NCBI GenBank assembly: GCA_963830105.1
Contig: CAWHLH010000005.1
Location: 154,226-218,225, forward strand
Origin: an uncultured Gammaproteobacteria bacterium
GTDB lineage: Bacteria > Pseudomonadota > Gammaproteobacteria > DATFLG01
DNA: 64,000 nt
Direction: 5' to 3'
Shown here: in pieces, positions 1 through 55,426 of the stretch
How positions within the stretch are numbered: the first letter of the stretch is position 1
How the letters are laid out: the number at the start of each line of letters is the position of its first letter
The notes under the pieces: model-generated
What the model was told of the DNA's origin: nothing
What the model saw: the letters and a program-made list of their open reading frames with translations, nothing else
Database searches by the model: none
Made by a program: the position numbers and the translations under genes

Positions 1-350
1 CGGATGTAATAGGGTTGTCTGCCCCGCCCTGTACCTTTCCATTCGTAGAACCCGTCGGCCGGCACCAGACAGCGCCGCTGCCGGAACGCGGCCCGGTAGG
101 CCGGCCGCTCGGCCAGGCTTTCGGCGCGGGCGTTGATCATCCTGTAGCCGATCTTAGGGTCCTTGGCCCAGGCAGGCACGAGCCCCCAGCGCAGCCACGT
201 CAGTTCCCGTCCGTCCCCGGCGGCGCATACGGCCGCGACGGCCTGGCCGGGTGCAATGTTGTAGCGGGGCGGCAGCACGGGCACCGAAGCCAGCTGGAAG
301 TGCTCGGCGATGCGTTCGGCGGGAGTGGCGAGGGTGAAGCGGCCGCACAT
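1..350 (-). CDS. SOS response-associated peptidase (SRAP/YedK/HMCES family), 5' end complete and 3' end truncated by the window edge
   Basis: Translating the minus strand from the ATG at 350 gives MCGRFTLATPAERIAEHF...RYNIAPGQ...LRWGLVPAWAKDP...NARAESL...AFRQRRCLVPADGFYEW. The N-terminal Met-Cys nucleophile and the conserved SRAP blocks are present. It is absent from the ORF track because there is no in-window stop. Confidence 0.6.
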   Translation of the reverse strand, partial: MCGRFTLATPAERIAEHFQLASVPVLPPRYNIAPGQAVAAVCAAGDGRELTWLRWGLVPAWAKDPKIGYRMINARAESLAERPAYRAAFRQRRCLVPADGFYEWKGTGRGRQPYYI

Positions 351-814
351 GGGAAAGAAGCCTAAATGATGGGTGCAGAATTACAAGCGCCTAGACGCTG
401 CTGAGTTCCCTGTGTACTGACGCTCTTTCACTGTGAATTCTGCACTCTGTGCTCTGCACTGGTGGGACTACTAGAGGTAGGGTGCAATAACCGAAGGGCA
501 TCGCGCCGTATACACGTCTCATGCCCAGGCTGTACCACAGCCCGAAAGAAAAAATGCGCCACGGAATCCACGGAAAACACGGAAAGAAACATTCGTCTGC
601 AGGTGCGGCAGCACCGGCTGGTGCTGTTGTTGAACAGGGCCACGGTGCTGTGACGCCAGTTTTTCCGTCCGTGGGTTCCGAGGCTCTTCAGAATACAAGG
701 GCGCAATGCCCTTCGGTCAATGCGCCGCGCCGGTAAAAACTTCACCGAACACAAGAACGCACGGGAGACGGAAAATGGTGAACGGCGCTGTCTGTCGATA
801 CTATTCAATGTCCA

Positions 815-1444
815 TTATCGTTCGTTGTACGAGCGCATCAGGCCCACCAGAACGCCCTGGATGATGACCTGCTCGGGGCGGTAGCGTTGTGATTCCAGGG
901 CGGCGTTGGCCGGATGGAGGATCACTGCGCCGGGCCGTTGTTCGATGCGCTTGAGGGTGGCTTCCTCGCCGTCGATCAGGGCCACCACGATTTCGCCGTT
1001 GCGGGCGCTGTCCCGTTGCTCGATGATCACCCGGTCGCCGTCCAGGATGCCTTCCTCGATCATGGAATCGCCGCGTACTTCCAGCACATAGCAGGGGCGG
1101 GCGGTGCGCAGGGCCGGGGGGATTGGAACCGGTTCCGGGTTGGGGACGGCTTCAATGGGCCGGCCGGCGGCGATGTAGCCCAGCCAGGGCAGAGTGTCCT
1201 CGCTTTGCCCGCGGTCACGGGACAGCCGGATGCCGCGCTGCTTGCCGTCCATGGGCTCCACCAGGCCGGCGGCGACCAGGGCCCGGATCTGTTTATGCAG
1301 GGAGCCGCGCGAGCGCAGGCCCAGCTCCCGGCACAGCATATCCAGGGTGGGCGGTGAGGCGCCCGCGGCTGCCCGCTCCAGCAGGTGCTCATGGATTTCC
1401 CGCTGTCGGCGGGTCAGATCAGCAATGGCTTGTCTGTTCTCCAT
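815..1444 (-). CDS. lexA: LexA transcriptional repressor (S24 peptidase)
   Basis: 209 aa. It has an N-terminal winged HTH, a Pro-rich linker, and a C-terminal S24 autopeptidase with the ...VRGDSMIEEGILDGD... Ser-Lys dyad region. Confidence 0.9.
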   Translation of the reverse strand: MENRQAIADLTRRQREIHEHLLERAAAGASPPTLDMLCRELGLRSRGSLHKQIRALVAAGLVEPMDGKQRGIRLSRDRGQSEDTLPWLGYIAAGRPIEAVPNPEPVPIPPALRTARPCYVLEVRGDSMIEEGILDGDRVIIEQRDSARNGEIVVALIDGEEATLKRIEQRPGAVILHPANAALESQRYRPEQVIIQGVLVGLMRSYNER

Positions 1445-1490
1445 CGGTTCTATAGTATCACGATAGAGAACGAATGGAGAACAGACAAGC
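1431..1490. promoter_or_regulatory. Extended imperfect palindrome spanning the divergent start codons; it contains GTTC-N7-GTTC (1435-1449) and GAAC-N7-GAAC (1467-1481) motifs and is a putative LexA operator
   Basis: The sequence is gtctgttctccatcggttctatag tatcac gatagagaacgaatggagaacagac. The outer 13 nt are perfectly inverted, and both divergent proteins start MENRQA as a consequence. Confidence 0.45.
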
Positions 1491-3915
1491 CATGTCCCTG
1501 CCCGCCGCCCAAGTCCCGGATGAGGCCGCTGCCGCCCAGTCGGATCGCGTTGCTGCTCTGGTAGGGCGCCTGAAGCGCAAGTACCGGGGCCGAATCACCG
1601 GCGAACTGGTGGTCCCGGCAAAGCCGGGCCGCTATGACCCTTTCCCTCCAGACCTGGAGCCACGGCTTGCGCAGGCCTTGCGCACCCGCGGTGTGGAGCG
1701 CCTGTACAGTCATCAGCGGGCGGCGTGGGACGCGGTCCGCGCCGCCCGCCACACCGTGGTGGTCACGCCCACCGCCTCCGGCAAGACCCTGTGCTACAAC
1801 CTGCCCGTGCTGCAAGCCGCCTTGCAGGACAAGGCGAAGGCCCTGTACCTGTTTCCCACCAAGGCCCTGTCCCAGGATCAGGTGGCCGAGATCCTGGAAC
1901 TGAACCGCGGCGGGGAACTGGGGGTGCGTGCCTACACCTTCGACGGCGACACCCCGGGCGATGCGCGCAAGGCGGTGCGCACCCGCGGGGACATCGTGGT
2001 GTCCAACCCGGACATGCTGCACCAGGGCATCCTGCCGCATCACACCAAGTGGGCCCAGTTCTTCGAGAACCTGCGTTATGTGGTGATCGACGAAATGCAC
2101 ACCTACCGCGGCGTGTTCGGCTCCCATGTGGCCAATGTGCTGCGCCGTCTGCGGCGCATCTGCCGCTTCTACGGCAGCGAGCCGGTGTTCATCCTGTGCT
2201 CGGCCACCATCGCCAACCCCGGGGAACTGGCCGAGCAGCTGATCGAAGCGCCGGTGCGGACCATCGACGAGAGCGGCGCGCCCCAGGGGGCGAAACAACT
2301 GCTGCTGTGGAACCCGCCGGTGATCAACCCGGACCTGGGCATCCGAGCCTCGGCCCGTTCCCAGACCACCCGCATCGCGCGCTATGCGGTGAAAAGCGGG
2401 CTGAAGACCATTCTGTTCACCCAGACCCGTCTGATGGTGGAGGTGCTCACCAAGTACCTCAAGGACGTGTTCGACCGGGACCCGCGCCGTCCGCCGCGGG
2501 TGCGGGCCTACCGGGGCGGCTATCTGCCCACGGAACGCCGCGATACCGAGCGCAAGCTGCGGGCGGGCTCGGTGGACTGCGTGATCTCCACCTCGGCCCT
2601 GGAGCTGGGCGTGGACATCGGCGCTTTGGATGTGTGCGTGCTGAACGGCTATCCGGGCACCATTGCCGGGACCTGGCAGCGACTGGGCCGGGCAGGGCGC
2701 CGCAACCGGCCGGCCCTGGGGGTGCTGGTGGCTACCAGCGAGCCGCTGGATCAGTACATCGTGCGCAATCCGGATTTCTTCCTGGGAGCGTCGCCGGAGC
2801 ATGCGCGCATCGATCCCGACCAGTTGCTGATCCTCATGGACCATATCCGCTGTGCGGCCTTCGAGCTGGTCTTTCGTGAGGGCGAACGCTTCGGCAAGGA
2901 AGACCTTCCGGAATGTCTCGCCTACCTGGAGGAAGAGGGCGTGCTGCATCGCGAAGGCGAACGCTGGCACTGGATGGATGACAGCTATCCGGCCAACAGC
3001 GTGAGCCTGCGCTCGGTGGCCGAGGGCAATTTCGTGGTCATCGACATTACCGACGGCGGTAAGCAGGTGATCGCCGAAGTGGACTACACCAGCGCGCCGG
3101 TGACCCTTTACGAAGGAGCGATCTACATGGTGCAGGCCAGGCCCTGGCAGGTGGAGCGCCTGGACTGGGAAGGACGCAAGGCGTTCGTGCGCCAGACCGA
3201 GGCCGACTACTACACCGACGCCATCGACTACACGAGACTGAAGATTCTGGAGGACTTCGAGCGGGCCTCGGGCCGCGGCGCCCATTGCGCCCGGGGCGAG
3301 GTGCACGTGGTGCGGCGGGTGGCCGGCTACAAGAAGATCCGCTATTACACCCACGACAACGTGGGCTACGGCAACGTGGACCTGCCCGACCAGGAAATGC
3401 ACACCACGGCTGTGTGGTGGCAGGTGGACAGCAGCGCCCTGGAGGCCGCCTTCGAAAGCCGCTGGCAGGCCCTGGACGGCTTTCTCGGCGCCGCCTATGC
3501 CATGCATTCGGTGGCCGCCCTGCTCACCATGTCCGAGCTGCGCGACCTGGGCCGCGCGGTGGGCGACGGGCAGGGTACCTGGTTCGCCACTGTGGACACC
3601 GACGGACGCGGGCGCATGCGCGGCGCGGACGGCGAACCCGTGGAAGCCGACACGCATGGCTTCGTGCCCACCGTGTTCCTGTACGACAACTATCCCGGCG
3701 GCGTCGGGCTGTCGGCGCCGCTGTTCGATCTGCGCGGGAAGGTGCTCGCAGGCGCCCATGCCCTGGTCACGAGCTGCGGCTGCCGCAACGGGTGCCCGGC
3801 CTGCGTGGGCCCGATCCTGGCCAGTGAAGAAACGCGTGGCGGATCGCCCAAGGCCGCCGCTCTGCGGGTGATCGATCTGTTGGCCGCGGGGCGTTCCAGC
3901 CGTGAGCACGCTTAG
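1474..3915 (+). CDS. DEAD/DEAH-box helicase with a C-terminal DUF1998/MZB zinc-binding domain (MrfA/YprA-like)
   Basis: 813 aa. It has a Walker A motif (TPTASGKT), a DEMH box (VIDEMHTYRG), a helicase C-terminal domain, and a C-terminal 4-Cys cluster (SCGCRNGCPAC). It overlaps the downstream gene by 14 nt. Confidence 0.8.
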   Translation: MENRQAMSLPAAQVPDEAAAAQSDRVAALVGRLKRKYRGRITGELVVPAKPGRYDPFPPDLEPRLAQALRTRGVERLYSHQRAAWDAVRAARHTVVVTPTASGKTLCYNLPVLQAALQDKAKALYLFPTKALSQDQVAEILELNRGGELGVRAYTFDGDTPGDARKAVRTRGDIVVSNPDMLHQGILPHHTKWAQFFENLRYVVIDEMHTYRGVFGSHVANVLRRLRRICRFYGSEPVFILCSATIANPGELAEQLIEAPVRTIDESGAPQGAKQLLLWNPPVINPDLGIRASARSQTTRIARYAVKSGLKTILFTQTRLMVEVLTKYLKDVFDRDPRRPPRVRAYRGGYLPTERRDTERKLRAGSVDCVISTSALELGVDIGALDVCVLNGYPGTIAGTWQRLGRAGRRNRPALGVLVATSEPLDQYIVRNPDFFLGASPEHARIDPDQLLILMDHIRCAAFELVFREGERFGKEDLPECLAYLEEEGVLHREGERWHWMDDSYPANSVSLRSVAEGNFVVIDITDGGKQVIAEVDYTSAPVTLYEGAIYMVQARPWQVERLDWEGRKAFVRQTEADYYTDAIDYTRLKILEDFERASGRGAHCARGEVHVVRRVAGYKKIRYYTHDNVGYGNVDLPDQEMHTTAVWWQVDSSALEAAFESRWQALDGFLGAAYAMHSVAALLTMSELRDLGRAVGDGQGTWFATVDTDGRGRMRGADGEPVEADTHGFVPTVFLYDNYPGGVGLSAPLFDLRGKVLAGAHALVTSCGCRNGCPACVGPILASEETRGGSPKAAALRVIDLLAAGRSSREHA

Positions 3916-5125
3916 GGACAGACTGGGCAAGCTCCAGTCGACCGACCCGGCTCTCACCCAGGCGGCCCAGGTTCGCTCTGGCCTGGGCGAGCGCATGCAG
4001 CGCCTGCGTGGCGCCGATCCCGAGCGGAGCGAGAAGGACAACGCGGTGCTGGCCGAGCGGCTCGGCGGTGACTGCATCGCCGAAGGCGTCATTGCGGTAC
4101 GGGAGACGTTGGCCCTGGAGCATGGTCATGGGCGCGTGCGTCTGCGCGAGGCGTTCGCGACGTCGTTGGACGCGCTTGCTCCCGGTCGGTCCGTAGGCAT
4201 CGAGGACCTGGTATTCATGGATACCGAGACCACCGGCCTGGCCGGCGGAACCGGTACGGTCGTGTTTCTGCTGGGGTTGGCGCGACTGGGGCCTGCAGGT
4301 CTGGAACTCATGCAGTTGGTGCTGACCCGCTTCTCCGGGGAAGCCGCGCTGCTGGAGGCGGGCCGTGAGTGGATGGCCCGCGGGCAGGCCGTGGTCACTT
4401 TCAACGGCCGCAGCTTCGATGTACCCCTGCTGACCGCCCGGTATCGCCTCAAGGGTCGGACGGATCCGTTTTCAGCGTTGCCCCAAATCGATCTGCTGCA
4501 TCCCACCCGGCGTGCTTTTGCGCGGCACTGGCCGGATTGCCGCCTGCAGAGCGCCGAACAGCGGCTGCTGGATTTTCACCGTCGCGATGATCTGCCTGGT
4601 GCCATGGCGCCCCAGGCGTGGTTCGACTGGGTACGGCGCGGCTCCATGGCGCTGCTGCCCGCGGTGGCGAAACACAACCGCTGGGACTTGCTTTCCCTGG
4701 CGGCGCTGGTGCCGGTTCTGGAAGACGTGTACCGCGACCCGGGAGCCTGGGGCGGAGATCCGCTGGCGGTGGCCCGTTTTCAACGGGGGCGGGGGGACGG
4801 CGCCAGTGCCCTGGCCATGCTGGAGGCCTACGGGCATAACCTCTGTCCCGCCGGCTCCAACGAACTGGCGCGGCTGCATCGCGACCAGGGCGACTGGGCG
4901 GCAGCGGTCGCCATCTGGCGGCGGTTGGCCGCTGACGACAACGTCGAAGCCCTGGAACGCCTGAGCAAGTTCTACGAGCATGTGTGCGGGGATTTTGCAC
5001 AGGCCTTGCACTATGCTGAACGATTGGCGCTGGTGGAGCGCGCCAATCCGGCTCACGCGCACCGCTTGCAGCGTCTTCATTCCCGTCTTGGACGACGGGT
5101 TTCCTTGGCGGCGGGCGGTTCCTGA
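3902..5125 (+). CDS. RNase H-like DEDD 3'-5' exonuclease (YprB/MrfB-like, RNase_H_2 fold) with a C-terminal TPR-like region
   Basis: 407 aa. It carries LVFMDTETTGL (exonuclease motif I), VTFNGRSFDVPLL, a DLLHPTRR...CRLQSAEQRLL block, and an HNRWDLLSL block, all typical of the YprB family. The C-terminus has helical repeats. Confidence 0.7.
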   Translation: MSTLRDRLGKLQSTDPALTQAAQVRSGLGERMQRLRGADPERSEKDNAVLAERLGGDCIAEGVIAVRETLALEHGHGRVRLREAFATSLDALAPGRSVGIEDLVFMDTETTGLAGGTGTVVFLLGLARLGPAGLELMQLVLTRFSGEAALLEAGREWMARGQAVVTFNGRSFDVPLLTARYRLKGRTDPFSALPQIDLLHPTRRAFARHWPDCRLQSAEQRLLDFHRRDDLPGAMAPQAWFDWVRRGSMALLPAVAKHNRWDLLSLAALVPVLEDVYRDPGAWGGDPLAVARFQRGRGDGASALAMLEAYGHNLCPAGSNELARLHRDQGDWAAAVAIWRRLAADDNVEALERLSKFYEHVCGDFAQALHYAERLALVERANPAHAHRLQRLHSRLGRRVSLAAGGS

Positions 5126-55105: not shown

Positions 55106-55426
55106 ATGGGCAGCGAGCGGAAGCTTGGCAATACAGACGATCTTGTGGTCGAGGAGGCGAGACCGAAGGTCAAACGCCCGCCTCTGTACAAAGTGATTCT
55201 ACTGAATGACGATTACACTCCGATGGAGTTCGTGGTTCAGGTTCTGGAGACGTTCTTCGGCATGGGACGCGAGAAGGCCACGCAGATCATGCTTCATGTG
55301 CACACGCGAGGAAAAGGCGTATGCGGGGTTTTCACCAGGGAAGTTGCCGAGACAAAAGTGGCACAGGTCAATGAATATTCGCGCCGGCATCAGCACCCGC
55401 TGTTATGCACCATGGAGGAGGCGTAG
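55106..55426 (+). CDS. clpS: ATP-dependent Clp protease adaptor ClpS
   Basis: [24 protein letters not shown] is the ClpS core. Confidence 0.9.

What the first reader, a model, noticed from the sequence alone, without database searches (positions are those of the whole stretch)
1474..5125. MrfA/MrfB-like helicase-exonuclease pair wired into the SOS locus
An 813-aa DEAD/DEAH helicase with a C-terminal DUF1998 zinc domain overlaps by 14 nt a DEDD RNase-H-fold exonuclease (FMDTETTGL ... HNRWDLLSL) that carries a TPR-like tail. This is the YprA/YprB (MrfAB) architecture implicated in NER-independent mitomycin-C adduct repair in Bacillus. Here the pair is divergent from lexA and shares the putative operator, and an SRAP (abasic-site crosslinking peptidase) lies just downstream of lexA. 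Direct LexA control of MrfAB and the clustering of SRAP-lexA-mrfAB are not established knowledge and would define a compact DNA-adduct repair island.
Basis: partly seen in the sequence, partly recalled or inferred. Interest (0 to 1): 0.65.

Follow-up and report, generated by a model that had tools for sequence, protein, structure and literature searches.

The report
LexA-controlled MrfAB DNA repair operon
A helicase–exonuclease pair that matches the Bacillus mitomycin-repair proteins MrfA and MrfB sits back-to-back with a LexA damage-sensing repressor gene and shares a conserved double operator with it, so it is very probably switched on by DNA damage; that wiring was not found in the papers searched, but it is a variation on a well-known theme.

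Summary
The helicase has the DEAD, Helicase_C, WHD_HRQ1 and MZB (formerly DUF1998) domains. It matches B. subtilis MrfA/YprA at E=1e-221. Its true start is ATG 1492, giving 807 aa rather than 813. The gene that overlaps it by 14 nt is a DEDDh exonuclease. It matches the MrfB crystal core by sequence and by predicted fold, and it has a TPR tail.

The 47 bp between lexA and mrfA hold two copies of GTTCTC-N5-GTTCT in inverted orientation, flanking a -10-like box. There are 2 exact hits in 64 kb against 0.02 expected. The same module lies upstream of mrfA in 27 related Gamma/Betaproteobacterial loci. lexA is the divergent neighbour in 28 of 80 loci, and mrfB follows mrfA in 76 of 80. Control of mrfAB by LexA is therefore strongly supported by comparison, though not shown by experiment.

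This LexA is not the canonical E. coli type (33% identity). Its operator is an alphaproteobacterial-style direct repeat. One related genome carries both kinds of LexA. The clade is not dedicated to mrfAB, because elsewhere it sits next to umuD.

The SRAP gene is real, but its linkage is weak. It is near lexA–mrfAB in 3 of about 31 loci, it has no operator of its own, and SRAP–LexA association in general was already published. Verdict: new variant of a known kind, of moderate interest.

The parts
1..350 (-). N-terminal 116 codons of an SRAP (YedK-like) gene, starting MCGRF; it runs off the window edge. It is a neighbour, not a demonstrated part of the regulated unit.
   Evidence: Translation. 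Pfam PF02586 SRAP E=2.7e-44, profile positions 1-121 of 214. No GTTC-N7-GTTC-type site in 341-830 apart from one 1-mismatch chance-like hit.
815..1444 (-). lexA, 209 aa. It has a winged-helix LexA DNA-binding domain and an S24 autopeptidase domain, with the Ala93-Gly94 cleavage site, Ser127 and Lys165. It belongs to a non-canonical clade.
   Evidence: TIGR00498 lexA 156.1 bits (cut-off 110.95); Pfam LexA_DNA_bind and Peptidase_S24. The catalytic and cleavage residues are invariant in the 13-sequence clade alignment. Identity to E. coli LexA is 33%.
1430..1435 (+). Inferred -35 hexamer (TTGTCT) of the mrfAB promoter. It lies inside the first codons of lexA on the other strand.
   Evidence: TTG sits at this position, or shifted by 1 nt, in 22 of 27 homologous modules. 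It is below the threshold of the simple promoter scan. Inference.
1436..1452 (+). Left operator OpL, GTTCTCCATCGGTTCTA: a direct repeat of GTTCT(C) with an 11-bp period. It fills the 17-bp spacer of the inferred mrfAB promoter and covers the lexA start codon (1442-1444).
   Evidence: Exact match to GTTCTC-N5-GTTCT; 2 hits in the window against 0.02 expected. The position is conserved in 27 modules upstream of mrfA.
1453..1458 (+). Inferred -10 element (TAGTAT; TATAGT at 1451-1456 is the alternative). The same AT-rich box read on the other strand (TGATACTAT) is an extended -10 candidate for lexA.
   Evidence: TAnnnT lies directly after OpL in 22 of 27 modules; a bottom-strand TAnnnT offset by 1 nt is present in 14 of 27. 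Inference.
1466..1482 (-). Right operator OpR, GTTCTCCATTCGTTCTC on the minus strand (GAGAACGAATGGAGAAC on the plus strand). It lies in the inferred 5' leader of mrfA and contains the GGAG (1476-1479) that is the only Shine-Dalgarno-like sequence before ATG 1492.
   Evidence: Exact match. The operator ends 0-12 nt (mostly 5-6) before the first ATG or GTG in 26 of 27 modules.
1492..3915 (+). mrfA (yprA) homologue, 807 aa. It is an SF2 DExH helicase (Walker A 94-99, DEMH 200-203, motif VI 396-403) with a winged-helix domain and a C-terminal MZB/DUF1998 domain with four cysteines (C762, C764, C768, C771).
   Evidence: Pfam. phmmer against B. subtilis YprA, PDB 6znp: E=1e-221, 741 bits. Motif positions. 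The start is supported by the homologue consensus MSxPAE and by the 807-aa gene call on the identical contig.
3902..5125 (+). mrfB (yprB) homologue, 407 aa. It has an N-terminal region of low model confidence, a DEDDh 3'-5' exonuclease core (D107, E109, D173, H258, D262) and a C-terminal TPR-like helical array (about residues 287-405). It overlaps mrfA by 14 nt.
   Evidence: PF13482 116.1 bits. phmmer against the MrfB core 8un9: E=4.8e-24. AF2 model pLDDT 87.4; Foldseek top hit 8un9 at E=2.9e-9; designed TPR proteins at TM 0.66-0.74. tblastn alignments in many loci begin at residues 1-4, which supports the GTG start.

Best explanation
The region is a DNA-damage-inducible repair operon under local LexA control.

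Regulator. A LexA repressor of a non-canonical clade is encoded at 815-1444 on the minus strand. I infer that it binds two operators in the 47 bp between its own start and the mrfAB leader. Each operator is a direct repeat, GTTCTC-N5-GTTCT(C), and the two lie in inverted orientation on either side of a shared -10-like box.

Repression. OpL fills the -35/-10 spacer of the mrfAB promoter and covers the lexA start codon. OpR lies at the start of the mrfA leader and contains its Shine-Dalgarno-like GGAG. Read on the other strand, OpR occupies the equivalent position upstream of the lexA -10. Bound LexA would therefore block RNA polymerase in both directions. This would repress mrfAB and autoregulate lexA.

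Induction. After DNA damage, RecA bound to single-stranded DNA should stimulate LexA self-cleavage at Ala93-Gly94 (catalytic Ser127 and Lys165), freeing both promoters.

Products. The mRNA encodes MrfA, an SF2 3'-to-5' helicase with a zinc-binding MZB domain. It also encodes MrfB, a DEDDh 3'-5' exonuclease with a TPR tail, translationally coupled through the 14-nt overlap. By analogy with B. subtilis, the two unwind and degrade the lesion-bearing strand, which gives bulky-adduct excision independent of UvrABC.

Shown here: the gene identities, the domain and catalytic residues, the operator architecture and its conservation, and the co-occurrence of the operator with this LexA clade.

Inferred: that this LexA binds the repeats, the promoter positions, induction by damage, and the repair substrate.
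For: Identity of the pair.
- The helicase carries the DEAD, Helicase_C, WHD_HRQ1 and MZB domains.
- It matches B. subtilis YprA/MrfA at E=1e-221.
- The exonuclease matches the MrfB crystal core by sequence (E=4.8e-24) and by predicted fold (Foldseek E=2.9e-9).
- The DEDDh residues and the four cysteines are present.
- mrfB follows mrfA in 76 of 80 related loci; the 4 without it are cut short or have too little sequence downstream.

LexA competence.
- TIGR00498 scores 156 bits, above its cut-off.
- The A-G cleavage site, the catalytic Ser and the catalytic Lys are invariant across the clade.

The operator.
- There are 2 exact GTTCTC-N5-GTTCT matches in 64 kb against 0.02 expected, both in the lexA/mrfA intergenic region.
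- The third-best site (1 mismatch, 55241) lies inside a ClpS-like coding sequence.
- Full double modules with the same layout lie upstream of mrfA in 27 cases, the window included.
- lexA is the divergent neighbour in 28 of 80 loci and lies within 1.6 kb in 2 more.
- Where other genes have been inserted between lexA and mrfA (L012, L053), each gene keeps its own operator or operators.

Link between the motif and this LexA clade, independent of mrfA.
- In a separate metagenome sample, clade members (54-68% identity) carry the motif just upstream of lexA even when mrfA is absent.

A protein site rather than a hairpin.
- The N5 spacers of the two arms agree in only 41-59% of modules, close to the 35-50% I estimate from the base composition of those columns in the same call.
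- The distance between the operators varies from 9 to 18 nt, while the 11-bp period inside each operator never changes.

Parallel with the alphaproteobacterial type.
- LexAs of about 235 aa in the same scan (helix ...[11 protein letters not shown]...) all have GAAC-N7-GAAC upstream.
- The clade here has ...L(R/S)SRGSLHK(H/Q)I... at the aligned position.
- GTTC-N7-GTTC is the published alphaproteobacterial LexA box (PMC4951493; PMC12700426).

Function of MrfAB in B. subtilis: bioRxiv 10.1101/426304.
Against: - There is no experimental evidence for binding, for induction or for repair activity in this organism.
- The simple sigma-70 consensus scan calls no promoter here, because the hexamers match only 8 of 12 positions.
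- The conservation figures for the GTTCTC positions come from a pattern-based search, so they are partly circular. Only the spacer, flank and position statistics are independent.
- P. aeruginosa MrfAB homologues did not complement B. subtilis mutants, so the substrate in proteobacteria may differ.
- In 46 of 80 related loci, mrfAB has no such operator. The control is therefore lineage-specific.
Confidence: 0.8

Rival explanations
1. Status of the regulator, reading A. This lexA is a second, paralogous LexA ('LexA2') that runs a small separate regulon (its own gene, mrfAB, and in other genomes umuDC). A canonical CTGT-N8-ACAG LexA elsewhere in the genome runs the main SOS response.
For: - L053, whose MrfA is 76% identical to the window's, encodes both kinds of LexA within 4 kb. 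One is a canonical LexA (66% identical to E. coli LexA, TIGR00498 247.8 bits) with CTGT-type boxes upstream. The other is the mrfA-linked LexA (65% identical to the window's).
- Few extra operator sites are seen in about 1.2 Mb of flanking DNA, and none in the rest of the window.
- Published exceptions to the canonical Gamma/Beta motif are associated with lexA duplications (PMC4951493).
Against: - Only one genome shows both genes.
- The window contains no CTGT-N8-ACAG box at all, with 0.6 expected, which says nothing either way.
- The rest of the source genome could not be searched.
Confidence: 0.5
2. Status of the regulator, reading B. This is the organism's only LexA and the master SOS repressor. 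It is a clade that replaced the canonical one, and mrfAB is simply one regulon member that happens to lie next to lexA.
For: - Clade members sit divergent to umuD, a classic SOS gene, in L093, L096 and L111 (NF007621, 164-167 bits against a cut-off of 110). L092 has a divergent S24-domain match, identified only by tblastn.
- mrfA is adjacent to lexA in only 2 of about 14 informative metagenome lexA loci.
- Extra double modules occur away from lexA and mrfA: L029 2322-2373 and L084 10421-10470.
Against: L053 has both LexA types. No SOS core gene such as recA or uvrA was seen with this box, though only short flanks were available.
Confidence: 0.42
3. The conserved repeats are bound by some regulator other than the adjacent LexA. 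Alternatively, the inverted repeat acts as an RNA or DNA hairpin, for example as an attenuator.
For: - The 30-nt arms are 90% complementary in the window.
- Rfam's permissive scan gives weak miRNA-precursor-like hits on the hairpin, all far below the gathering scores.
Against: - Complementarity in the N5 spacers is near the level expected from base composition, and the distance between the arms varies.
- Single operators persist on their own when the genes are separated.
- The motif tracks the LexA clade in loci without mrfA.
- The operator architecture matches that of alphaproteobacterial LexA, whose recognition helix is similar.
Confidence: 0.05
4. The helicase-nuclease pair is an anti-phage defence module, since YprA-family helicases drive DISARM, Druantia and Dpd. 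On this reading it is kept silent by a LexA-like repressor and is not a repair system.
For: - PADLOC models BrxHI, SngC, DruE, DpdJ and DrmA hit the helicase.
- The YprA family is central to several defence systems (PMC12458937).
Against: - The PADLOC hits cover only the generic helicase core (residues about 55-435) and only part of each profile (best 158 bits). The match to repair MrfA is full-length at 741 bits.
- MrfB and LexA have no PADLOC hit.
- The published YprA phylogeny places helicases linked to MrfB/YprB on the DNA-repair branch.
- The neighbouring genes are housekeeping genes, not a defence island.
Confidence: 0.03

Closest known systems
Bacillus subtilis MrfA/MrfB (YprA/YprB), the mitomycin repair factors
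   Same: The two-gene operon has the same order and the same domain architecture. The helicase has a DExH core, a winged helix, and an MZB/DUF1998 domain with four cysteines. The exonuclease has DEDDh residues and a C-terminal TPR domain. The helicase matches along its full length at E=1e-221. The exonuclease core matches by sequence and by predicted fold.
   Different: In the B. subtilis work read here, mrfAB is not described as under LexA or SOS control (0 mentions of LexA). Here a lexA gene is divergent and shares a double operator. The substrate in proteobacteria is unknown; P. aeruginosa homologues did not complement B. subtilis mutants.
Alphaproteobacterial LexA and its GTTC-N7-GTTC direct-repeat SOS box
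   Same: The operator has the same half-site (GTTC), the same direct-repeat geometry and the same 11-bp period. The recognition-helix region is similar: S-[KR]-x-x-[IL]-H-[RK]-x-I (motif from PMC4951493 and PMC12700426).
   Different: The protein is 209 aa against about 230-245 aa, and only 36-41% identical. That is no closer than its identity to Gram-positive-like LexAs. The half-site is extended to GTTCTC. The host is a gammaproteobacterial MAG.
Second-LexA regulons: P. putida lexA2-imuA-imuB-dnaE2, Xanthomonas LexA1/LexA2, and the non-canonical LexA of Gallionellales and Nitrosomonadales
   Same: A divergent LexA with its own binding motif sits physically next to a damage-tolerance or repair operon. 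In at least one genome it coexists with the canonical LexA (concept from PMC4951493 and PMC9578287).
   Different: The cargo is mrfAB (or umuD in other genomes) rather than imuA-imuB-dnaE2. The arrangement is divergent, not co-directional. The motif is a direct repeat, not a palindrome.
SRAP / YedK (SOS response associated peptidase)
   Same: It starts with Met-Cys (MCGRF) and gives a strong PF02586 match. It lies near a lexA gene, as in the published neighbourhoods.
   Different: Published contexts are umuDC, imuAB-dnaE2, dinB, Ku/ligase and an SF1 RecD-like helicase; MrfAB is not among them. Here the linkage is loose and no operator is present.
Eukaryotic Hrq1 helicase, which works with the Pso2 nuclease
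   Same: It belongs to the same helicase family; the WHD_HRQ1 domain hits at 37.5 bits. It also pairs with a nuclease in crosslink or adduct repair (title and abstract of bioRxiv 10.1101/773267).
   Different: The partner nuclease has a different fold (Pso2 is a metallo-beta-lactamase nuclease; from my own knowledge), and there is no LexA-type control.

Membership tests
MrfA / YprA helicase (criteria of Burby & Simmons, bioRxiv 10.1101/426304) | DExH-box SF2 helicase core | tested here: met
   Pfam DEAD 111.8 bits and Helicase_C 59.9 bits. Walker A TASGKT 94-99, DEMH 200-203, SAT 237-239, QRLGRAGR 396-403.
MrfA / YprA helicase | C-terminal MZB/DUF1998 domain with four conserved cysteines | tested here: met
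   PF09369 MZB 49.9 bits against a cut-off of 24.2. C762, C764, C768 and C771 lie in ...SCGCRNGCPAC... and align with the CPCHDGCPSC stretch of B. subtilis.
MrfA / YprA helicase | Full-length similarity to the characterised B. subtilis protein | tested here: met
   phmmer against 6znp: E=1e-221, 741 bits, covering query residues 44-661 and 721-776.
MrfA / YprA helicase | 3'-to-5' DNA helicase activity and a role in mitomycin C adduct repair | not testable with these tools
   Requires biochemistry and genetics.
TIGR03817 DECH_helic (actinobacterial 'helicase/secretion neighbourhood' equivalog) | Score above the curated cut-off | tested here: not met
   634.6 bits against a cut-off of 874.1. It is a relative, not a member.
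MrfB / YprB exonuclease | DEDDh catalytic residues of a DnaQ-like 3'-5' exonuclease | tested here: met
   D107, E109, D173, H258 and D262 are present. Their motifs align with those of the MrfB core 8un9.
MrfB / YprB exonuclease | Fold of the MrfB catalytic core | tested here: met
   AF2 model pLDDT 87.4, pTM 0.80. Foldseek top PDB hit is 8un9_A at E=2.9e-9, with TM (target) 0.72.
MrfB / YprB exonuclease | C-terminal TPR domain | tested here: met
   Several Pfam TPR models hit below threshold (best E=2e-4). phmmer hits the designed CTPR protein 7obi at E=3e-8. Foldseek hits 1na0 and 7obi at TM 0.66-0.72, rmsd 2.8 A. JGI names homologues 'YprB with RNaseH-like and TPR domain'.
MrfB / YprB exonuclease | Encoded directly downstream of mrfA in one operon | tested here: met
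   The genes overlap by 14 nt. mrfB follows mrfA in 76 of 80 related loci.
LexA repressor | LexA winged-helix DNA-binding domain plus S24 peptidase domain, scoring above the equivalog cut-off | tested here: met
   TIGR00498 156.1 bits against a cut-off of 110.95; PF01726 and PF00717.
LexA repressor | Ala-Gly cleavage site and a Ser/Lys catalytic dyad | tested here: met
   A93-G94, S127 and K165 are invariant in the clade alignment A2.
LexA repressor | Autoregulation: its own operator at its own promoter | tested here: met
   The motif lies directly upstream of lexA in the window, in the genome loci and in most clade members of the metagenome scan. This is comparative evidence only.
LexA repressor | RecA-stimulated self-cleavage and damage-induced derepression | not testable with these tools
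   Requires a cleavage assay or expression data.
Canonical Gamma/Betaproteobacterial LexA (CTGT-N8-ACAG) | High identity to E. coli-type LexA, with CTGT-N8-ACAG boxes at lexA | tested here: not met
   Identity to E. coli LexA is 33%, against 66% for the second LexA of L053. There is no CTGT-N8-ACAG box anywhere in the window.
Alphaproteobacterial LexA clade | GTTC-N7-GTTC direct-repeat operator | tested here: met
   GTTCTCCATCGGTTC and GTTCTCCATTCGTTC. The motif definition comes from PMC4951493.
Alphaproteobacterial LexA clade | Protein belongs to the clade (about 230-245 aa; ...[24 protein letters not shown]...) | tested here: not met
   It is 209 aa and only 36-41% identical. There is a clear identity gap between its own clade (54-68%) and all other LexAs (43% or less). 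It works like an alphaproteobacterial LexA but is not a member of that clade.
SRAP (PF02586) | N-terminal catalytic Cys2 and the SRAP domain | tested here: met
   MCGRF...; PF02586 E=2.7e-44. Only the first 116 residues are in the window.
Proposed 'SRAP-lexA-mrfAB repair island' | Conserved three-way linkage and common LexA control | tested here: not met
   SRAP lies next to a lexA-linked mrfAB only in L013, L017 and the window. It is separated from lexA by another gene in L013. No operator precedes SRAP. A terminator-like hairpin lies at 573-559 on the minus strand.

The most novel reading that the evidence does not exclude
A LexA lineage in Gamma- and Betaproteobacteria that I did not find described in the papers searched recognises alphaproteobacterial-style direct repeats (GTTCTC-N5-GTTCTC). 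It can coexist with the canonical LexA, and it forms a portable 'lexA + repair or tolerance operon' cassette whose cargo is mrfAB or umuDC. Its bidirectional control region would be unusually economical: two tandem-repeat operators flank a single shared -10 box. One of them fills the promoter spacer and covers the lexA start codon. The other doubles as the ribosome-binding site of mrfA. On this reading MrfAB would be a true SOS function in proteobacteria, and across lineages it has been placed under at least three different upstream control elements.
Probability: 0.35. Interest if true: 0.6.

Novelty: new variant of a known kind. Interest (0 to 1): 0.45.

Why it matters
MrfAB has been characterised only in B. 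subtilis, and the B. subtilis study read here never mentions LexA. Its role in proteobacteria is open, because P. aeruginosa homologues did not complement B. subtilis mutants.

A conserved operator shared with a cleavage-competent LexA gives the first regulatory evidence that the proteobacterial pair responds to DNA damage. It also offers a simple, testable handle: one 70-bp fragment and one repressor.

The finding adds a direct-repeat LexA motif outside the Alphaproteobacteria. It also gives another example of a lexA copy travelling with a repair operon, which bears on published models of how LexA motifs and regulons evolve.

It does not reveal a new kind of system.

Tried and rejected
1. RNA reading of the inverted repeat. 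The Rfam permissive scan gave only miRNA-precursor hits far below the gathering scores. The test of arm complementarity argues against a hairpin under selection.

2. Simple sigma-70 and terminator scan. It called no promoter at the module, because only 8 of 12 hexamer positions match. The promoter positions therefore rest on comparative alignment alone.

3. Canonical SOS boxes. There is no CTGT-N8-ACAG in the window, and the two GAAC-N4-GTTC hits are at chance level.

4. A LexA dedicated to mrfAB. I held this view after the genome-locus scan and then dropped it. A metagenome scan seeded with LexA showed clade members without mrfA and with umuD as the partner.

5. SRAP as part of the regulated unit. 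Rejected, because the linkage is rare, there is no operator, and a gene or a terminator-like hairpin intervenes.

6. Defence-system reading. PADLOC hits cover only the generic helicase core.

7. Sanchez-Alberola et al. 2015 (J Bacteriol, PMC4507345). I wanted to see whether a DUF1998 helicase is among the LexA targets in Sideroxydans, but the paper is not held.

8. Sequence beyond the window start.

9. The site at 55241 (1 mismatch). It lies inside a ClpS-like coding sequence, so I treat it as a chance match.

10. The gap 351-814. It has no repeats elsewhere, no credible ORF and no homologues.

Full report
**1. What is in the sequence**

- 1474-3915 (+, 813 aa)
- 3902-5125 (+, 407 aa, GTG start)
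- 815-1444 (-, 209 aa)

The two plus-strand ORFs overlap by 14 nt, GTGAGCACGCTTAG.

Pfam places DEAD (111.8 bits), Helicase_C (59.9), WHD_HRQ1 (37.5) and MZB, the 'MrfA Zn-binding domain' formerly called DUF1998 (49.9), on the first protein. It places RNase_H_2 (116.1 bits, residues 104-270) on the second, and LexA_DNA_bind plus Peptidase_S24 on the third. NCBIfam calls the third protein LexA: TIGR00498, 156.1 bits against a cut-off of 110.95.

On the minus strand, from 350 to the window edge, the sequence reads MCGRFTLATPAE.... This matches the SRAP family at E=2.7e-44.

**2. Identity of the pair**

Against all PDB sequences, the helicase hits B. subtilis YprA/MrfA (6znp) at E=1e-221 along nearly its whole length. 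The next hits are generic SF2 helicases at E of about 1e-19.

The second protein hits the crystal core of B. subtilis MrfB (8un9) at E=4.8e-24. Its residues 319-388 hit a designed consensus TPR protein at E=3e-8.

I built an alignment of 40 homologues and obtained an AlphaFold model with mean pLDDT 87.4. Its best Foldseek match in the PDB is again the MrfB core (E=2.9e-9, TM 0.72). Next come the exonuclease domains of family-B polymerases. The helical C-terminus superposes on designed TPR arrays (TM 0.66-0.74, rmsd about 2.8 A).

No single Pfam TPR model reaches its cut-off on the tail. 'TPR-like tail' is nevertheless correct on structural grounds.

The criteria that Burby and Simmons used for homologues are all met:
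- MrfA: a DExH core, the C-terminal domain, and four cysteines (DEMH 200-203; C762, C764, C768, C771).
- MrfB: the catalytic residues (D107, E109, D173, H258, D262).

Public pipelines already name close homologues 'YprB with RNaseH-like and TPR domain'. The identical protein is deposited from a Gammaproteobacteria MAG.

**3. Correction of the helicase start**

ATG 1474 lies inside the right-hand operator, in a conserved ...AATGGAGAAC. In L012, L014, L016 and L062 the equivalent ATG is out of frame with mrfA.

Homologues begin M-S-x-P-A-E. In the window this corresponds to ATG 1492 (MSLPAAQ). Gene calls on the identical public contig give 807 aa.

Both lexA and the long helicase ORF start 'MENRQA'. 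This is a by-product of the inverted repeat, which covers both starts.

**4. The control region**

The repeat finder reports a 30-nt inverted repeat, 1425-1454 / 1464-1493, 90% complementary. Each arm contains a direct repeat: GTTCTCCATCGGTTCT (1436-1451, + strand) and GTTCTCCATTCGTTCT (1467-1482, - strand).

Exact matches to GTTCTC-N5-GTTCT number 2 in the window, against 0.02 expected from shuffles. The only 1-mismatch site elsewhere lies inside a ClpS-like coding sequence.

**5. Comparative test: genome loci seeded with the helicase**

I fetched 80 loci encoding helicases 66-78% identical to the window's. They come from sulfur-oxidising and other Gammaproteobacteria, Xanthomonadales, Nitrosospira and Burkholderiales. 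tblastn with the window's proteins showed the following:
- mrfB lies directly downstream in 76 of 80 loci; the other 4 are cut short or have too little sequence downstream.
- A lexA 53-67% identical to the window's is the divergent neighbour in 28 loci, and lies within 1.6 kb in two more.

In the window plus these loci there are 29 complete double modules. Of these, 27 lie upstream of mrfA (the window's among them), one is at the lexA of L012 and one elsewhere in L029. All share one layout:
- TTGnnn
- GTTCTC-N5-GTTCTC (17 nt)
- TAnnnT
- about 7 nt
- GAGAAC-N5-GAGAAC
- mostly 5-6 nt
- the ATG of mrfA

TTG occupies the -35 position, or is shifted by 1 nt, in 22 of 27 modules. TAnnnT follows the left operator in 22 of 27.

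Where other genes were inserted between lexA and mrfA, each gene keeps an operator. This is the case in L012, and in L053, where the insert is an RpoS-like sigma factor gene.

L002, L007 and L022 have the module upstream of mrfA without an adjacent lexA. L023, whose upstream flank is too short to show a lexA, has one operator there.

**6. Operator or hairpin?**

The five spacer positions of the two arms agree in only 41-59% of modules. That is close to the 35-50% I estimate from the base composition of those columns in the same call.

The distance between the two operators ranges from 9 to 18 nt. The 11-bp period inside each operator never changes.

Single operators also occur alone. These results fit two independent protein-binding sites and do not fit a hairpin under selection.

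One caveat applies. The near-invariance of the GTTCTC positions is partly imposed by the search pattern.

**7. Which protein binds?**

A second, independent sample was seeded with an alignment of LexA proteins of this clade and scanned against metagenome contigs.

There is a clear identity gap. About 21 loci fall at 54-68% identity; all others are at 43% or less. Most clade members with enough upstream sequence carry the same motif just upstream of lexA, even though mrfA is adjacent in only two of them, L094 and L099.

In L093, L096 and L111 the divergent partner is umuD (NF007621, 164-167 bits against a cut-off of 110). L092 has a divergent S24-domain match.

The motif therefore tracks the LexA clade rather than mrfAB. 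This clade behaves as a genuine SOS-type repressor and is not dedicated to mrfAB. I had favoured a dedicated regulator until this scan.

In the same scan, every LexA of about 235 aa with the helix ...[19 protein letters not shown]... has GAAC-N7-GAAC upstream. That is the published alphaproteobacterial direct-repeat box (PMC4951493; PMC12700426). The window's clade has ...L(R/S)SRGSLHK(H/Q)IQAL... at the aligned position.

This LexA therefore works like an alphaproteobacterial LexA: same half-site, same geometry, similar recognition helix. It is not a member of that clade, being 36-41% identical and 209 aa long. It is only 33% identical to E. coli LexA.

Its Ala-Gly site, catalytic Ser and catalytic Lys are invariant across the clade. 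RecA-stimulated cleavage is therefore expected.

**8. Paralogue or sole LexA?**

L053 encodes both kinds of LexA within 4 kb:
- a canonical LexA, 66% identical to E. coli LexA (TIGR00498 247.8 bits), with CTGT-type boxes upstream;
- the mrfA-linked LexA.

At least there, the mrfA-linked gene is a second copy. This fits the published association between motif exceptions and lexA duplication.

For the window's own genome the question stays open. The window has no CTGT-N8-ACAG box, but only 0.6 is expected by chance. The rest of the genome could not be reached.

**9. SRAP and the 'island'**

SRAP is on the same strand as lexA and starts 464 nt downstream of the lexA stop. The gap contains no credible ORF and no operator-like site. 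It does contain a terminator-like hairpin with a T-run on the minus strand at 573-559.

Across the 80 loci, SRAP lies within 8 kb of mrfA in six. Only L013 and L017 also have the linked lexA. In L013 a 359-aa ORF lies between lexA and SRAP. In L017, SRAP follows mrfB.

This is more than chance for a single-copy gene. It is far from a conserved unit, and three of the six loci are Thiocapsa.

SRAP was named for its neighbourhood with LexA, UmuDC, ImuAB-DnaE2 and DinB. The helicase noted in that work is an SF1 RecD-like enzyme, not MrfA (PMC3765255).

**10. Other ways mrfAB is wired**

Loci without the LexA direct-repeat module are not bare.
- Four loci (three Nitrosospira and one Burkholderiales MAG) have a perfect GAAC-N4-GTTC palindrome upstream of mrfA. 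This is the motif type reported for the non-canonical LexA of Gallionellales. From my memory of a paper I could not read, it is also reported for Nitrosomonadales.
- Twenty-one loci (Stenotrophomonas, Dyella and various MAGs) have a [GT]CTCA-N5-TGAG[AC] palindrome 30-99 nt upstream. These are 21 of the 29 matches in 1.17 Mb.

The operon therefore seems to have been placed under different upstream control elements in different lineages.

**11. Prior knowledge**

Full-text searches for MrfA/MrfB with LexA, DUF1998 with LexA, and yprA with LexA returned nothing relevant. The 2025 survey of the YprA family never mentions LexA or SOS, and the B. subtilis paper never mentions LexA.

LexA control of other helicases (UvrD, PcrA, DinG) is classic. 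Second-LexA regulons are also known.

The library lacks many subscription papers. One key paper was unavailable.

**12. Verdict**

The pair is an ordinary member of the MrfAB family. What is new is its wiring. It has a divergent LexA of a non-canonical clade, with direct-repeat operators and a compact bidirectional control region. That arrangement is conserved across many Gamma- and Betaproteobacteria.

I rate this a new variant of a known kind, of moderate interest. The evidence is strong by comparison but entirely computational.

Noticed in passing
window 470-740 (between lexA stop 815 and SRAP start 350): A long imperfect hairpin of about 250 nt. The RNA MFE is -127.3 kcal/mol, z = -6.25 against 200 shuffles. 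The outer arms are 481-507 / 700-726. It has no Rfam match, no credible ORF and no copies elsewhere. Two of the public contigs carrying this locus end about 356 nt past lexA, inside this stretch. It could be an ncRNA, a structured 3' UTR or a palindromic element.
   Followed up: partly
window 1425-1493: lexA and the longest helicase ORF both begin with the peptide MENRQA. This is because the inverted repeat covers both start regions. For the helicase it is an ORF-calling artefact; the true start is 1492.
   Followed up: yes
L024, L034, L044, L048, L049, L052, L054, L055, L059-L061, L063, L065, L066, L068, L074, L076-L080: 30-99 nt upstream of mrfA: In lineages that lack the LexA direct-repeat module, a different conserved palindrome, [GT]CTCA-N5-TGAG[AC], precedes mrfA. 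These are 21 of the 29 matches in 1.17 Mb. The regulator is unknown, and no consistent regulator gene lies next to it.
   Followed up: partly
L008 (-26), L010 (-208), L015 (-95), L070 (-75) relative to the mrfA start: A perfect GAAC-N4-GTTC palindrome lies upstream of mrfA in all three Nitrosospira loci and in one Burkholderiales MAG. This is the motif type reported for the non-canonical betaproteobacterial LexA. It suggests that mrfAB is controlled by LexA there too, through a different LexA.
   Followed up: partly
L053 2613-3218 (-), 5993-6604 (-), 6878-7816 (+): One gammaproteobacterial MAG carries a canonical E. coli-type lexA (66% identity, with CTGT-type boxes upstream) and the mrfA-linked lexA within 4 kb. 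An RpoS-like sigma factor gene (331 bits, below the equivalog cut-off) is inserted between that lexA and mrfA.
   Followed up: yes
L093 2264-2779, L096 4576-5010, L111 5423-5902 (also L092 4122-4511): In metagenome contigs, LexA proteins of the same clade are divergently paired with umuD instead of mrfAB, and the same GTTCTC-N5-GTTCTC motif lies between them. In L092 the partner is identified only by a tblastn match to the S24 domain.
   Followed up: yes
L029 2322-2373; L084 10421-10470: Complete double-operator modules occur away from lexA and mrfA. They are followed only by small ORFs; in L084 this is a 56-aa ORF with a hydrophobic C-terminus. These could be small SOS-induced membrane peptides or sRNAs.
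   Followed up: no
window 55241-55256: The only other near-match to the operator in the window (1 mismatch) lies inside a ClpS-like coding sequence and is probably a chance match.
   Followed up: yes
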